A stretch of 64,000 nt of DNA, from NCBI GenBank assembly GCA_000165425.1, contig CT867987.1, forward strand, positions 124,001 to 188,000. The letters are read 5' to 3'. Below, one piece after another: positions 13,048 to 26,300 of this stretch. This stretch comes from Paramecium tetraurelia. Taxonomy: Eukaryota. The notes beneath the pieces are model-generated. The model was given only the letters and a program-made list of their open reading frames with translations. It did not search any database and was not told the origin of the DNA. The position numbers and the translations under genes were made by a program. Every line of letters starts with the position of its first letter. Position 1 is the first letter of the stretch.

Positions 13048-13115
13048 ATTGAAGATTAATAAAGAATTTTTAAAATACTGAATTTTTCCGAAAAATTCAA
13101 TAATAATGCTATTCT

Positions 13116-14455
13116 TCATTCCTAATATTCAAAATGCTCGTCTTAATATGTGTCCAAAGTATCTTGATATAAAAATATTGTATCATCAAGCCTAGATTAA
13201 GCTCCCACAAATTCTGATTCCTCAATTCCTTCTTGAATATATTTATGGACGTAAGATTTTTTAGGGTACATTTTCTTAAATTTCTCACTTAAACTCTTCA
13301 GGGATTAAGTTATGCTAGAAGAATGAATAATGGAACTTCCAAAAAATTCATAATTTTAATATTTTTTCTAACATATATTGGTAAAAAACATGTTTATTCC
13401 TTCGAATTTCTTTTTAACCCCTGTTCTATATCTCTGGTGTTCTAGATAATAGTCGAAACAAGAGCATTATTTATCAAATTCCTTATTTGATACTTTTCCC
13501 CTTACGCTAAGCGCAGCTGACACAAATTTTCCTTAGGTATATACAGCGCTAGTTTGGTTGTGATCTGATGATATTAATTCCTTAAAAATTTAATATTCAT
13601 CCATCTTTAAGTATTCCTTGTAGTAATCGCTGTATAGATTATTAGTCATGTTACAAGTAAATAATTTATAAAATGCAAAAGGGCTCAAATTTGTTGAAAG
13701 TTTTCTCAAACTTGAATTAATATCCCCAGGATTTCTGAATGGTGATGAATTACAACATATTGTTTAAGCAACATGAAGATTTGCATCTTAATAATCAAAT
13801 TATATGCCTAATCTACTAAGGTTTTATTTTAATCCTTCATTATCAAAAAATATTAATTGCTCAGCCGAATCTATCAATTAATTAAATGCTAAAGCAGAAT
13901 TATAAGGTGAAACCACACAATTGTCGTTTAATTTTACTGAAGGAACTAATAAGTTACATTAAGTAATGGCATTTGAATATTCATCATTTAGCATTTGAGA
14001 TAAAACTGCTGATAAACCAGATCCAGTATTATTAAAACAGTGATACCACCAATTATGGATGCAAAAATTTAGAATCCTTACAATGAATCACATTATTCTA
14101 TCTCTTATCTTATCCTATCAAAAATAATGTCAACAATTTAATTGCAGCAATTGTTTTTTACAAATCCAAAATTATTGCCAGATGAATAATTAAATGAGAA
14201 CTGATTACATGGATTAAAATCTGTATTTGAGTAGGGTAAATCTTATCCTAAATCGACTTATACAGTTCGAGGAAGTGGTGTCTTCTCACTTAAATTATAA
14301 AACAAGATATTAGAAGAATTAAGCAAATTATTTTTATTTTGTTCTTGTAAATCAATATCACTTTCAAATTCACTATCTATATACATTTCTTCCCAAAATT
14401 TAACTCCCATTTTATTACCAAAGCCTCCTAATTGCAATACTAAAATTTCCCTCAT
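13116..14455 (-). CDS. Highly divergent beta-like tubulin; signature motif interrupted by a 17-bp insertion (possible pseudogene)
   Basis: MREILVLQLGGFGN, PRTVQVDL, SGNNFG, EQCDSLQGFQI, VVSPYNSAL, PGDINSSLRKLSTNL, YVHKYIQEGIEESEF. Frame break at 14027-14045. Confidence 0.85.
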
Positions 14456-14835: not shown

Positions 14836-15804
14836 TCAATTTCTTCCTCTGAAATGTAAATTTTATTTCTTGTGAGCTCTTTTTTCCTTTCTATTTTCAT
14901 CACCATTGTCACCGTTATCTCCATTATCTCCGTTGTCTCCGTTGTCTCCGTTATCTCCGTTATCTCCGTTGTCGCCTTCACCTTCACCTTAGCCTTCATC
15001 TTCTCCTTAGCCGTCATCTTCTCCTTAGCCGTCATCTTCTCCTTAGCCTTCATCTTCTCCTTAGCCTTCATCTTCTCCTTAGCTTTCACCTTCTCCTTCA
15101 CCTTCGCCTTCATCTTCTCCTTCACCTTAGCCTTCATCTTCTCCTTAGCTTTCACCTTCTCCTTAGCCTTCATCTTCTCCTTAGCTTTCACCTTCTCCTT
15201 CACCTTCGCCTTCATCTTCTCCTTAGCCTTCATCTTCTCCTTAGCTTTCACCTTCGCCTTCACCTTCGCCTTCGCCTTCGCCTTCGCCTTCGCCTTCGCC
15301 TTCGCCTTCGCCTTCGCCTTCGCCTTCGCCTTCGCCTTCGCCTTCGCCTTCACCTTCGCCTTCACCTTCGCCTTCACCTTCGCCTTCGTCTTCACCTTCA
15401 CCTTCGCCTTCGCTTTCTCCTTCACCTTAGCTTTCACCTTCGCTTTCTCCTTGGCCTTCTCCTTCGCTTCCTTCTTCACTTCCTTCTTCACTTCCTTCTC
15501 CTTCACTTCCTTCTCCTTCGCTTCCTTCTTCACTTCCTTCTCCTTCACTTCCTTCACTCTATTCTCCTTCTTCACCATTTTCCTCTCCATCACTTGACCA
15601 TTTATCCACTCCATCATCCTCTCCAGTGGGCCAATCATCTTATGGTTAACTGCTGTCTTCTCCGCCTTATGAATCTTCTCCGTTTGAGCTTTATGGTTAT
15701 TCATCTTCACCATTTTATCCTGATCCATTTCCTTCATCTTGTTTATGGAATCTTCTTGCAGAGATACATAATAACAATAGAGTAATCAATAAAAATTTAT
15801 TCAT
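14836..15804 (-). CDS. Secreted Glu/Gly/Asp-rich low-complexity protein, 322 aa
   Basis: MNKFLLITLLLLCISA signal, then EGS/(EG)n/EGQGED/(DNG)n repeats and basic tail RKEKRAHKKQNLHFRGRN*. 969 nt, intronless in code 6. Confidence 0.85.
14905..15560. repeat. Nested coding repeats: 9-bp (CTCCGTTRT), 18-bp (CCTTAGCCTTCATCTTCT) and (TTCGCC)n hexamer run at ~15265-15350
   Basis: Directly visible. They encode DNG, EGQGED and EG repeats on the minus strand. Confidence 0.9.
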
Positions 15805-21224: not shown

Positions 21225-21331
21225 TGATTAAATATTATTTACAAATTTTTAATTGATATTTCTATAGTAAAATATTGATTTATTGATATGATTTATATAA
21301 TATTATTATTTATAAATGAAAGTACAACAAA

Positions 21332-23103
21332 TCATTTTGGTAAATAATCAGGGAATAAGTCTTAAACTAAATGCAAAGGATCTTAATAGTTTGTGTAGGA
21401 ATTCATCTTCAATAATTATGAATTTAGCTCTCTAACATCAGTGACCATCCTAAATTTCATTAAATAATTTTGTAAATATAATAATTCCTAAGTTTGAATA
21501 ATTTTATTACTTAATCTTATTTATTATCATAGAATGCAATAATTGGTACTCCATTATCGATTTATTACCCAAATGAGTAACTAGCATTATCAATCAAAAG
21601 AATATTAGATAATTTTCTGTTGCCTAAGACCCTAGGGATATAGAACTGAAATACCTTAAATCCTTAACATATGCTCCTTCCTCAGTTTGTAAACAATGAT
21701 CCCTAAACAGACGATGGCTGATCCATTGTTTTTTTGGGTCCAAGTAATCTAAAACTATATTAGCATAGCATGAATGAGAAGCTGTAAATACGATGATTTC
21801 AAAATGTCGAGATAAAGTTTAAAGAATTTGCTAAGCAAATGGCCTGATATTGATAGATGCTTAGATAGTCTCTCCAGTGGGGAAAGAGATGGGTAACACA
21901 ATATCTCCAGGGACAGCAATACTTTCATTGCAATGAATAAGAGTTTCATCCAAATCAAAAACCAATGTTTTGAAATGATTAGATTTTGGTAGATTCACAA
22001 TTTTGTCTTCTTGAAATTGCAATTGTAAATTTCTAGCATACTCTAAACCCTGATTTATAATGATAAGAGCATACCTAGATAGTTTGCACAATGTGATCTC
22101 TGACTACTTCATCGTTTTTGTTACTTTATTCTTAGACTAAGGCTCTCATTACACTGGAAATATAATATAGGAACTATTTTCAGATTAAATGTGTACATTC
22201 TCATCCTTTTTTGGCTTCTATGATGAATATGACTTCTCATTAATGACTGTTTTGATAATTGGAACGGCTGTTTAACTAATTTCTAGAGACTAGTGTCTGC
22301 TAATTTAGGATTATTATTGTGGTTATTGTGGTTGAGTTGGTTTTTTTATTTGCTTTACTTATGTAACGAATTGATCAAGATTGAGACTTGATTATTTCTC
22401 TTTACCAATTTGACTTTGCTTTAAAGCCTTGTTGAGTTATAGATTCAGAGCAGTTGCACATTTGGTTAAATTCTTTTGGAGTGCTTGCTTCTTTGGGTTC
22501 ATTATTTTCTTAGTCTTTTTTTTAAAAGAACTTAGCAGCCAAACCTACTGGCTTTTGCTTTCCTCTTTCTGATTATTTCTGTAATTAGGAATTGCTTATT
22601 TCTATATTGGATTTAATTTTATTGATCTTGTTTTCCAAAAACAACAATTTCTCGTGTAATTTTTTATATTCTGATTAATCAATTTATTTGTTTGCCAACT
22701 GTTAATTAGATTAAGATTTCACTAGACAATTATCTGGAACCTATTTTAATGAATAATATCTTGATTAAGGAGTGGCTTATTATGGTTGAATGTAGGTTGA
22801 GTTCTTTAATTCCTTGAATGAGCATCTGGATGGTTGTTTCTGGTTAGAAAATGCCCTTTTATCATTGGAAGCTGAGGATGGTCTTGGCACTGCCTATACT
22901 GATGGTTGTCTGGGTTGGGAGGAATTGGGACGCATTTCTGGTTTTTGGAGGGTCTAAGTGGATTGATATTGAGGGTAAGCTTATATTGGTTTTCGTTTTT
23001 GCAATTATGCATATGAGTTCTCCTTATCAGGTGTCTATTTGAAAGACTAACGAAAGGAGTCTTAAACTACAGGTCTTTGAACATATTGTGGTACTCGTTG
23101 CAT
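21332..23103 (-). CDS. FCP/SCP (NIF-domain) HAD phosphatase
   Basis: KTLVFDLDETLIHC catalytic motif, FTASHSCYA, IDN motif. Long Q/P-rich N-terminus. Confidence 0.9.
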
Positions 23104-23345
23104 TCAGTTTAAATTTGTTAAATTAAAAAAAGTCTGTTTAATTTAATATAATCACTCAATATTTTCTTTTTGTAGTATTTCGGCATTGCAAATTTCTGGG
23201 TATTATGTATTATTAAGAAGTTCAAAATTGGGATTAAAAATTTATTTTATGTAGTCCACGTATTAATAATTCTAATAGTGAAATTATCTAGTGAAGATTA
23301 AATGTGTTCTTTAAATGACATTTATATTTTTTATTAATAATTAAA

Positions 23346-26300
23346 ATGAATTAGCTGCTGGAAGGTAAGATGTTGGTGTTATGTTAGACTTGATTTAACA
23401 ATTTATAAAGGATGGAGAGGAGAAGCAGAGTGAACAAATAAGTCGTTAAGTAATGTAAAAGCATCCTGTTGTCTACTTGTGCAAATGTTCTGAGATTTTA
23501 GATGAAGTACTTATTAAATGTATTTTAGATGACTGAAATAAATAGCGAATACATCAGAGTACTTCGTTTAACACTTCAGGTTTCTGGGTTGTTAACTCGA
23601 ACAGAGGAGGCCAAATTAGGAGTCATATAATGCACTCAAGTGTTAAAACGAATTATAAATCGAATTCTGAGTCAACCTTAAATTTCAGAGGAGTTGAATT
23701 AATTGCTCACCGATATCCACATCAAATTAATGGATGTTTTTGATGAATTGATTATCAATCATATTTCTGATTTTTTTGAATCTGGACGTGTTCCTGAAAT
23801 AGTTATTTTGAAGATCATTTAGCAGATTTTCGAATCATAAAGTAAAGAGTTAATTAAATTTGTTTAGGTAAAGAATACTTTAGACAATTTTCATACGAAA
23901 TATTATAAAAGATTTTATCATCTCTCTCTCTTGTGAAGACTGATTAATGTAGATTAGATTATTGTTCATTGTTGCAATCTATTTATAAAACACTAACTCA
24001 TTTCGAAGAGAATCAGATTTAAATTAATCAGGAATAGGTTTAAAATGTAAGTTGGCTTATTTTTGACTAAATCATCAAAGATTGGATGCAAACTACCACT
24101 TAAGTTTAAGTGTTGTCTTTGGTTGGATTTATGAGTTAATTTATATCAAGGGATAGATTGGAACGAAGTCTAGAAAGATTGACATCTGTATATTTGAGTG
24201 TTTTGAAACAAAAAAGCAATTAATTAAGACCATTGTTTGAAGGTTTCAATAAGTTCCTGGAAAGATTATACCATTTGGACAGAATTGGATACGAGGGAAT
24301 CATAAAATCGATTATGGTTTCATTGTATGAATTTTACAAGAATCCAATCTTCTCTCCTAACTACCCATTTGATCCAAATGCTTTGAAGTATAAGAATGAC
24401 TTATTGACCCTTTTGCAGACAGTATCAAAGTTTAATATAGATAATTGTTTAGATCTGTTTATTGGTAGAATTAATGTAATTAAATGTATGTATATTTTAG
24501 AGTAAGGATTAGATAGAGAGAGTTTCATGTCTATGGATTTGCAATTTCATTTTGTCTAGAAATTTCAAACTGATCTCTGAACCATACAAAAGACAATTAG
24601 TGTTATAATTACTAAATTTATAATTTGAATAAGATTGCGAAGTGAGATATTCAATTTGCGAAATCATTTTACAAATCTACTACAAACTAAAAGATGAAGA
24701 ATTACCAATCAATTAAACCTACTTGGACGTTAAAGCTCTCCTCTTTTATTTGTTTAATCAGGTATCGATACATGATAAGGAATTGGAGGAATACGGAAAG
24801 TAAAGGGCAGCACCATTCGAGACGACCTTAGAAGTAAGATTCAAATTTATATTTTGAAAGCTATTGAAGAGTAGAGCTTAAAAGGTATTGACAACACTTT
24901 CATAAGATCAGTATTTTTATGATTTATTATGGCCGATGGGATTGGAAATTATTAATAACCAAAAGTTTTCTCCAGGATTATCTCATATTTTTAAATGTTA
25001 CACTTAGATCTTGCAAAAATTAAGCATTATCACTCCTAATTCCCCTGTTGCCTAACATGTTATCGTTGTGAGAATGCTACTGCTAATTTAGATTCCATAC
25101 TTCTTTCCAAATTTAGGATTTGAAGCTGTTAATTTCTTGCCATATTTGATAAAGACATTTGATTTGAAGGTCCCAAGTAGTTTTCACTAAAATGTAGAAG
25201 CATTGAAACAATATCTCATAAATAAAAAGCCTTTGGATGAATTTTATGAGGAGAAGGTATAATAAATTTGGAAGGTTTGCTTATCATTATTCATTTAAAA
25301 TAAAGAACTCTCTTAAATCGAGGAGGACTTTTAGGTTTAACTAAGCATGTATTTAAATTCACAAGCCTTGAGATTGCCAATAATGAAAATGTAAGCAACT
25401 CTAATGAGTTTTCTCACTAATTAGGAAACAATTAAATACAATTTAGATAAGTTGTTTAGCATTTGTCATCAAGAATACACAAATCAAGCTCTAAATCTCA
25501 ATGTCCCAATTTAAGAGCCAGACTTCAATCTTCGACTTTGTGTAGCTGAATGCTTTGGTTACATCGGAGAAAGACACACTCAATTAGTATTAGATAAAGT
25601 CAAGTCAATTTTAAATTGCGAAGTGATTCAAAAGAAGAATACAGGTTCATTCAAGGAGAGTGTTTTATCAATTTTTTAAAAAAATGGCAGTGATGAATAT
25701 TTGGCCTCCTTTAGAGCTACGCTACTAATAGCCTATGGATGTTTAGCAAAATAAGTTTCTTTAGAAACATTGGAGAAGAATATCCTACCAAATGTTATGC
25801 CATTTATTGGACATGAACAATTGTTCAATTCTCTTTAGATCTCTTTAGAATCCATAAGCAAAGCAATCGAAAGATCTATTGAAAATACAGATGAAGCTGC
25901 TGCATCCTCATTTTTGTTGAGTTACTAAAAATATAGAGAATAGGTGTTGAATCACTGTTAAAAAAATATCACTCGAGGAAATATATTTAGGAATCTTAAT
26001 ACAATTAATTTACAATATCGTTTGGCTCCGGTTGAGTATAATAAGGCTAAATAATTATTGAGTTAACATTTGGATTAGAAGTATGATCTTTCAATTGAAT
26101 AAGTCAGTCTTACGTTTTAAAACTGTTTTTTGTTGTTTTTGGGAACAGTTAAATTGGAAGAAGACTCTTAAAGTATTTCAGTTTGGCAATCTCTATTGTA
26201 TTTAATAAAATCAATTAAGGATAATGATTAATTGATAGAAGTTTTGTAGAAAAGTATTTAGAGAGTGAAACTAAAGATGGAATAAAATCATAAGAATTAT

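What the first reader, a model, noticed from the sequence alone, without database searches (positions are those of the whole stretch)
14027..14045. 17-bp TA-bounded IES-like insertion splits the GTP-binding signature of a divergent tubulin
Seen: the minus strand reads GCA TCC ATA ATT GGT GG[TATCACTGTTTTAATAA]TA CTGGATCTGGT. Removing the 17 bp between TA 14027-28 and TA 14044-45, keeping one TA, restores the frame. It gives ASIIGGTGSG, which aligns gap-free with canonical HSLGGGTGSG. Known: Paramecium IESs are excised between TA dinucleotides leaving one TA, but P. aurelia IESs are typically >=~26 bp. Inference: this may be an IES that shrank below excisable size and is now fixed in the soma, an unusually short IES, or a plain indel. 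A 38-nt GTA..CAG intron starting at the same point would also restore the frame but delete GTGSGLS, so the locus could be an IES-to-intron conversion yielding a P-loop-less tubulin. TA ends alone are weak evidence in AT-rich DNA.
Basis: partly seen in the sequence, partly recalled or inferred. Interest (0 to 1): 0.75.

Follow-up and report, generated by a model that had tools for sequence, protein, structure and literature searches.

The report
Leftover stub of mis-cut germline insertion
The 17 extra bases that break this Paramecium tubulin gene are the stub of an already catalogued 127-base germline insertion that the cell cut out at the wrong internal site, a known kind of editing error that is unusual here only because it is the main form in this assembly and common in some cultures.

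Summary
In detail: 17 bp between TA 14027-28 and TA 14044-45 frameshift a divergent beta-like tubulin, and only their removal restores SIIGGTGSG, found in the paralog and all sister-species homologs seen. It is not an assembly error (3 of 3 DNA runs laid hold it). But it is neither a 17-bp IES nor an intron. Contig break points in 2 of 3 DNA runs show a further insertion starting TAC at the inner TA. Published IES coordinates place IESPGM.PTET51.1.100.137987 (127 bp, Pgm- and Ezl1-dependent, late-excised) at the outer TA and show that the strain-51 reference lacks the 17 bp. So the stub is what remains when the 127-bp IES is cut at an internal TA (about 110 bp out): a 'partial internal' alternative-boundary error, a described class. 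At 17 bp it is below the 26-bp minimum, so it should be a dead end until the next sexual cycle. The one RNA run lacks exactly 17 nt, not 38; the 38-nt intron is a gene-model patch. Unusual: the error product is the assembly's consensus and about 30% of flanking depth in two runs, while published strain-51 controls show at most about 9% retention. The cause of that difference is untested.

The parts
13116..14455 (-). Divergent beta-like tubulin gene, no true intron; 440 aa when the IES is fully excised, 193 aa with the stub
   Evidence: translation; Pfam Tubulin PF00091; best PDB matches of the ortholog are all beta-tubulins; RNA contigs cover 13108-14445
14027..14043 (+). 17-bp stub = the outer end of the 127-bp IES (IESPGM.PTET51.1.100.137987); outer boundary TA at 14027-28, end reads TATTATTA
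14044..14045 (+). Junction TA left by excision at the internal alternative boundary; in germline-containing DNA a further insertion beginning TAC (about 110 bp if the allele is the catalogued one) sits here
   Evidence: contig ends 14046/14044 and 57-bp bridge 14017-14073 in X2 and X7, reproduced exactly by simulation; 127-17=110 is inferred
13874..13876 (-). Premature TGA reached in the shifted frame, 56 codons after the break
   Evidence: 193-aa ORF
14009..14046 (-). 38-nt GTA..CAG gap used by database gene model P0008; not supported as a real intron
   Evidence: model; RNA contig keeps these exon bases; intron sizes
14356..14357 (+). Site of a second, normally excised IES in the same gene (IESPGM.PTET51.1.100.138299, 135 bp); internal control
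   Evidence: bubble 14328-14384 in 3 of 3 DNA runs; id maps onto this TA; length

Best explanation
The germline copy of this tubulin gene carries a 127-bp IES inside the codon for the GGT/ACT junction of the GGTGSG loop. Normally the Pgm complex cuts at both outer TAs and end-joining leaves one TA, giving an intact 440-aa gene (shown: strain-51 reference, RNA). The IES has a second TA 17 bp inside one end, followed by C. When that internal TA is paired with the far end, about 110 bp are removed and 17 bp stay (shown: the three forms; inferred: the 110-bp figure and that Pgm makes the cut). The stub is below the 26-bp minimum, so it cannot be removed in a second round and persists in that macronucleus (inferred from published size limits). 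It shifts the frame to a 193-aa product, and no 20-35-nt GT..AG splice can rescue it, so such copies are nulls (inferred). The likely local cause is a weak true end (TATTA) competing with an inner TAC end in a long, late-excised, chromatin-dependent IES (inferred). Why the error is the majority or near-majority form in G000 and three runs but rare in published strain-51 controls is open; my odds: line-to-line developmental chance or knockdown conditions plus ascertainment 0.4, maternal (epigenetic) inheritance of the boundary choice 0.3, a germline allele difference between stocks 0.3.
For:: X1 holds the stub in one unbroken 3,147-bp contig with 0 differences; X2 breaks at 14046/14044 with a low-depth 57-bp bridge; X7 also breaks at 14028; RNA run X17 lacks exactly 17 nt; of 9 simulated mixtures, only 'stub + insertion starting TAC at 14044' gives X2's ends and only 'excised + stub + insertion' gives X7's. 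The 312-bp spacing to the second bubble was predicted before the look-up; ids .137987 and .138299 are 312 apart; 5 of 5 upstream IES ids land on TAs at offset 40, 10 of 10 following ids at offset 57 (next best offset 6 of 15), so the strain-51 reference is 17 bp shorter here; X1 shows no other difference in that interval; length 127 bp; retention 0.81 in PGM, 0.50 EZL1, 0.63 PTCAF1 knockdowns. 'Late' class; late IESs make sevenfold more errors than very early ones; 134 of 689 residual TA-indels were parts of longer IESs. SIIGGTGSG intact in 10 of 10 family members other than the two models of this gene; dN/dS 0.19 against the paralog, the same before and after the break, so the gene is not a decaying pseudogene.
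Against: The germline sequence beyond TAC was never read here; the 110-bp inner piece is arithmetic and assumes the same allele. All runs are contigs, not reads, so shares are rough and rare forms are hidden; in X2 the visible branch depths (20, plus about 11) do not add up to the flanks (about 64). The four runs were picked from those best matching the stub-bearing window, which favours stub-rich samples. 110 bp is 3.3 bp off the nearest size peak while 127 bp is on one, and a 17-bp shift is not the 10-11-bp shift typical of PgmL1/PgmL3-type errors, so helical phase does not explain the inner cut. The published polishing pipeline names only 1-2-nt indel corrections, so how the 17 bp left the strain-51 reference is not documented.
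Confidence: 0.88

Rival explanations
1. The inner ~110 bp is a real, younger IES inserted near the end of an older one (nested, sharing one boundary). Excising it first leaves a 17-bp remainder that cannot be excised. Same products, different history.
For: Inner end starts TAC, the marginally preferred first base for IESs up to about 135 bp; nested IESs are documented; the inner cut is used far more often than typical errors.
Against: No scaffold-100 id string was found in Table S5 of PMC9808624 (Table S4 not searched, and id format there unseen). An older host IES would have had to be at least 26 bp and then lose length. 110 bp is off-peak.
Confidence: 0.07
2. IES-to-intron conversion: cells that keep the stub splice a 38-nt GTA..CAG intron and make a tubulin without GTGSGLS.
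For: The splice reopens the frame; database model P0008 uses it; the IES TA after a G creates a GTA donor (sequence).
Against: RNA contig of X17 lacks 17 nt and keeps the other 21. 99.9% of introns are 20-35 nt and the consensus is GTA..TAG. A second database model of the same gene patches the break differently (P0014, SIIGAGSG), which shows guesswork. All other family members keep the loop. X17 may come from cells with the excised form, so stub-rich cells are untested.
Confidence: 0.02
3. A 17-bp IES, either shrunk below excisable size and fixed, or excised although shorter than 26 bp.
For: TA ends; a form without the 17 bp exists.
Against: The catalogued IES at this TA is 127 bp; germline-containing runs have extra DNA at the inner TA; the minimum IES size is 26 bp.
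Confidence: 0.02
4. Assembly error or ordinary indel in a dying duplicate gene.
For: A paralog exists (61% identical); the draft had thousands of small errors.
Against: 3 of 3 DNA runs hold the stub; no other lesion in the gene; dN/dS 0.19; RNA covers the gene.
Confidence: 0.01

Closest known systems
Partial internal (alternative-boundary) IES excision errors / TA-indels of Paramecium tetraurelia (PMC3464196, PMC6143343, PMC9670198, PMC4132734)
   Same: One true TA and one internal TA are used; part of a catalogued IES stays in the macronucleus; one TA at the junction; long, late-excised IES.
   Different: Described as low-frequency (controls: median 0%, mean 1.5-2.4% per IES). Here it is the assembly consensus, so it would be scored with reversed polarity as a 'low-frequency TA-indel with an outside boundary', and it is about 30% of flanking depth in two runs. 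The shift is 17 bp, not 10-11.
Nested or internal IESs (226 listed in PMC9808624)
   Same: An excisable TA-bounded piece inside a longer IES.
   Different: Here the inner piece shares one boundary with the outer IES and the remainder is too short to excise; not found in the one internal-IES table searched.
Gene switches by alternative IES boundaries: mtA of P. sexaurelia, mtB of P. septaurelia/biaurelia; IES+ macronuclear variant lines such as 51G4404 (PMC7900874, PMC2425466)
   Same: Boundary choice during macronuclear development turns a gene on or off without a germline change.
   Different: Those use outside boundaries or whole-IES retention, are tied to a phenotype, and in some species are maternally inherited. 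Here no phenotype or inheritance is shown, and the IES hardly depends on Dcl2/3/5 (0.03-0.09).
Ciliate 'divergent group' beta-tubulins of the P. aurelia complex (PMC11321004)
   Same: Pfam Tubulin domain, about 29-30% identity to conventional beta-tubulins, two copies per aurelia species seen.
   Different: Which named group (beta6/7/8, theta, iota) could not be settled; the family reads IGGTGSG instead of GGGTGSG.

Membership tests
Paramecium IES (the 17 bp on its own) | Bounded by TA at both ends, one TA left after removal | tested here: met
Paramecium IES (the 17 bp on its own) | At least 26 bp | tested here: not met
   17 bp against the 26-bp cut-off
Paramecium IES (the 17 bp on its own) | Is the whole germline-limited insertion at this site | tested here: not met
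   extra insertion at the inner TA; catalogued length 127 bp
Partial internal alternative-boundary excision product | A catalogued, Pgm-dependent IES at the same site | tested here: met
   retention 0.81 in PGM knockdown
Partial internal alternative-boundary excision product | Retained piece starts at one true boundary and ends at an internal TA | tested here: met
   offset change of 17 bp and contig ends; indirect, the IES sequence itself was not read
Partial internal alternative-boundary excision product | Correctly excised form also exists | tested here: met
   RNA contig of X17; branch at 14028 in X7; strain-51 coordinates
Partial internal alternative-boundary excision product | New stub junctions need Pgm | not testable with these tools
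   needs read-level data from new macronuclei with and without Pgm
Spliceosomal intron (38 nt) | GT..AG ends and 20-35 nt length | tested here: not met
   GTA..CAG but 38 nt
Spliceosomal intron (38 nt) | Removed from mRNA | tested here: not met
   1 of 1 RNA run lacks 17 nt, not 38; stub-rich cells not tested
Maternally controlled rearrangement (epiallele) | Excision depends on scnRNAs (Dcl2/3, Nowa1/2) | tested here: inconclusive
   published retention DCL2/3 0.07, DCL2/3/5 0.03, NOWA1/2 0.14-0.17, TFIIS4 0.18 against controls 0.009-0.089: weak at most
Maternally controlled rearrangement (epiallele) | Progeny copy the parent's macronuclear form | not testable with these tools
   needs pedigrees through autogamy or crosses
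Tubulin superfamily, beta-like | Tubulin GTPase domain; best matches are beta-tubulins | tested here: met

The most novel reading that the evidence does not exclude
The boundary choice at this IES is a heritable somatic switch: once a macronucleus carries mostly the 17-bp stub, its sexual progeny reuse the inner TA, so some laboratory lines are standing somatic knock-outs of a conserved divergent tubulin with an unchanged germline. Because the stub is too short ever to be excised, the locus would be a natural reporter for how IES ends are chosen and for the first step by which part of an IES becomes somatic DNA.
Probability: 0.25. Interest if true: 0.55.

Novelty: new member of a known kind. 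Interest (0 to 1): 0.3.

Why it matters
Mostly a correction: two database proteins for this gene (433 and 439 aa) are patches over an IES stub, and the 'P-loop-less tubulin' does not exist as far as the data show. It is also a worked case in which an assembly's consensus is the excision error and the rare-looking deletion is the correct gene. For specialists the useful point is the frequency spread at one locus, from a few percent to a majority, with a stub that cannot be cleaned up; that makes a simple PCR assay for how Pgm picks between two TAs 17 bp apart and whether the choice is inherited.

Tried and rejected
No RNA holder was on record; X17 is marked 'RNA?' and was accepted as spliced RNA only because its contigs lack four GT..AG introns of 20-22 nt. 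Word shares (1 row at 0.99, 1 at 0.98, 13 at 0.96 of 24 rows) fit loss of the 45 stub-spanning words (expected share 0.967) but cannot tell 'excised only' from a mixture, since X7 is a mixture at 0.96; not used as evidence. Splitting bin depths into branch shares was tried by hand and dropped: short chance matches add depth. Simulated alternatives that failed to give X2's contig ends: excised+stub only, 38-nt deletion, insertion at the outer TA, a substitution, insertion without the third shared base. Nine scaffold-101 ids and four short scaffold-100 ids were left out of the offset test; scaffold 101 had no pair 312 apart among the ids shown. Full-text searches for the gene ids, the IES id and 'iota-tubulin'+Paramecium found nothing; supplement searches in PMC6143343, PMC11321004, PMC8670300 (file cut) and Table S5 of PMC9808624 found nothing. 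Helical phase as the cause of the inner cut was tested and does not fit. The tubulin's group name could not be assigned. Earlier findings of this scan: none returned. No structure prediction was run.

Full report
1. The observation. The window is AT-rich ciliate DNA read with code 6. A tubulin gene runs on the minus strand from ATG 14455 to TGA 13116. The frame breaks after SIIGG. Of all deletions of 1-44 bp tried around the break, only one 17-bp deletion (three equivalent placements) gives a full ORF with GGTGSG, 440 aa; left in place, the ORF stops at 193 aa. The 38-nt GTA..CAG gap also opens the frame (433 aa); the only GT..AG gaps near the break that do so are 38, 41, 41 and 44 nt, none of 20-35 nt. 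TA ends prove little: 27 TA..TA deletions near the site reopen the frame, and 4.6% of random 17-mers would be TA-bounded.

2. The gene. G000 holds one close paralog (C39), uninterrupted, whose DNA equals the excised junction. A search with the paralog gave 11 proteins at E<=1e-40, 8 of them from Paramecium; 7 of those 8 have SIIGGTGSG, the exception being P0008, the 433-aa model of this very gene (GSPATT00027639001). Three further cluster members also have it; P0014, a second model of this gene, patches the break as SIIGAGSG. The excised form is 88% identical to the P. octaurelia ortholog, 61% to the paralog, 29-30% to conventional beta-tubulins; dN/dS against the paralog is 0.19 (0.17 before, 0.19 after the break). 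Pfam and PDB searches place it among beta-like tubulins. So the gene is conserved and the lesion is isolated.

3. Public runs. I laid 4 of the 24 runs listed, chosen among the best holders; all are contigs. X17 lacks four GT..AG introns of a neighbouring gene, so it is spliced RNA; its contig over the tubulin lacks exactly 17 nt at 14027 and nothing else. The 17 nt have no GT..AG placement. X1 carries the stub in one unbroken 3,147-bp contig with no differences, so the stub is not an assembly error. X2's contigs end at 14046 and start at 14044, joined by a 57-bp piece at depth 20 against about 64. X7 shows the same piece (17 against about 62) and also breaks at 14028. A de Bruijn simulation of 9 mixtures reproduced X2 exactly only with the stub form plus an insertion beginning TAC at TA 14044, and X7 only with the fully excised form added. 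The same signature at 14355-14357 appears in 3 of 3 DNA runs, a second IES 312 bp away.

4. The published IES catalogue. In Table S3 of PMC9808624 (held cut at 33,178 rows) two ids are 312 apart: IESPGM.PTET51.1.100.137987 ('Late') and .138299. Mapping 21 ids onto G000:C4: 5 of 5 upstream ids fall on a TA at offset 40, the 10 ids from .138299 on at offset 57, the last 5 at offset 58; no other offset from -300 to 300 placed more than 6 of the 15 downstream ids. The strain-51 reference is therefore 17 bp shorter between window 12083 and 14356, an interval in which X1 shows no other difference from G000. It has the excised form, and .137987 sits at the outer TA. Supplements of PMC9670198 give its length as 127 bp and retention of 0.81 (PGM), 0.50 (EZL1), 0.63 (PTCAF1), 0.07 (DCL2/3), 0.09 (DCL5), 0.03 (DCL2/3/5), 0.18 (TFIIS4), 0.14-0.17 (NOWA1/2), 0.12-0.13 (ISWI1), and 0.009-0.089 in controls, where the neighbour scores 0. 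Excision scores in old-macronucleus fragments are 0.95-0.99. That the small control signal is the stub is my inference.

5. How it works. Shown: three forms exist (full IES, stub, clean). Inferred: 17 + about 110 = 127; Pgm pairs the far end with either the outer TA (clean gene) or a TA 17 bp inside (stub). The stub is under the 26-bp minimum, so it stays until the next macronucleus is built, and it makes a frameshifted null. The outer end reads TATTA; the inner begins TAC, and C is the marginally preferred first base for IESs of this length; late IESs are the error-prone class. Against a simple geometric cause: 127 bp is on a size peak and 110 bp is 3.3 bp off (peaks), and PgmL1/3-type errors shift by 10-11 bp. 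The stub is the consensus of G000, the only visible form in X1, and 0.28-0.31 of flanking depth in X2 and X7, about half of the excised molecules if retention equals the neighbour's. That is far above published control rates, but these runs were selected for matching the stub, their treatments are unknown to me, contigs hide rare forms, and X2's visible branch depths do not add up. Chance, knockdown effects, maternal inheritance and a stock-specific allele all remain; weak Dcl2/3/5 dependence argues somewhat against maternal control.

6. Comparison with what is known. Alternative internal boundaries are a described class: 134 of 689 residual TA-indels were parts of longer IESs, and 249 of 1,090 'low-frequency' TA-indels share a TA with an IES site. 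This case belongs there, with the polarity reversed: the assembly holds the error. Gene switching by boundary choice is known for mating-type genes, and maternally inherited IES+ lines are known; neither inheritance nor a phenotype is shown here. IES-intron interconversion is a published idea, but the only RNA evidence is against it at this site. I found no paper naming this gene or IES in main text (Creative Commons library only).

7. What I saw of each paper. PMC3464196: passages and sections 12, 27; supplements listed, not read. PMC9808624: passages, Table S3 in part, Table S5 searched; Table S4 not searched, supplementary PDF too large. PMC9670198: passages, section 26, rows of four supplementary files; Dataset EV2 too large, and it bears directly on the frequency claim. 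PMC6143343: passages, supplements searched. PMC11321004: passages, section 11, supplements searched. PMC8670300: passages, cut supplement searched. Passages only: PMC7402521 (45, not used), 10.1101/2025.11.02.686105 (49), PMC3698930, 10.1101/114215 (65), PMC7900874, PMC4132734, PMC2425466. Recalled, from no call: that contig assemblers drop low-depth or longer bubble branches, and that NMD may remove frameshifted transcripts, either of which could hide the stub in X17.

8. Verdict. Real, IES-derived, explained: a partial internal excision product of a catalogued 127-bp IES. New member of a known kind. Interest 0.3, carried by the high and variable frequency of a non-removable, gene-breaking stub.

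Noticed in passing
window 14036-14043 (+): Inside the stub, AACAGTGA matches the IES end consensus TAYAGYNR at 7 of 8 positions, missing only the T of the TA; it may be a dead former boundary or chance.
   Followed up: partly
window 14836-15801 (-): Upstream gene encodes a protein with a hydrophobic N-terminus and a long acidic Gly-Glu / Gly-Asp-Asn repeat; no Pfam match.
   Followed up: partly
L002:1501-2817: Database model P0002 (431 aa) of the paralog lacks 7 residues (NVYFNLN) that the open frame and all homologs keep; probably another false intron.
   Followed up: no
window 14044-14073 family-wide: All members of this tubulin family read IGGTGSG where conventional tubulins read GGGTGSG; effect on nucleotide binding unknown.
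   Followed up: no
L004:1501-2900 and L005:1501-2200 (minus strand): Two conventional alpha-tubulin copies in G000 leave the frame late in the gene; likely small sequencing errors or introns. L004 also has a divergent alpha-like tubulin right behind it.
   Followed up: no
window 21324-23803: Offset to strain-51 IES coordinates changes from 57 to 58 here: a 1-bp difference, probably a corrected sequencing error.
   Followed up: no
window 11043, 11407, 11667, 11821 (+): Four GT..AG gaps of 20-22 nt confirmed as spliced by the RNA run; three lie in the cyclic-nucleotide-binding-domain gene region just downstream of the tubulin.
   Followed up: yes
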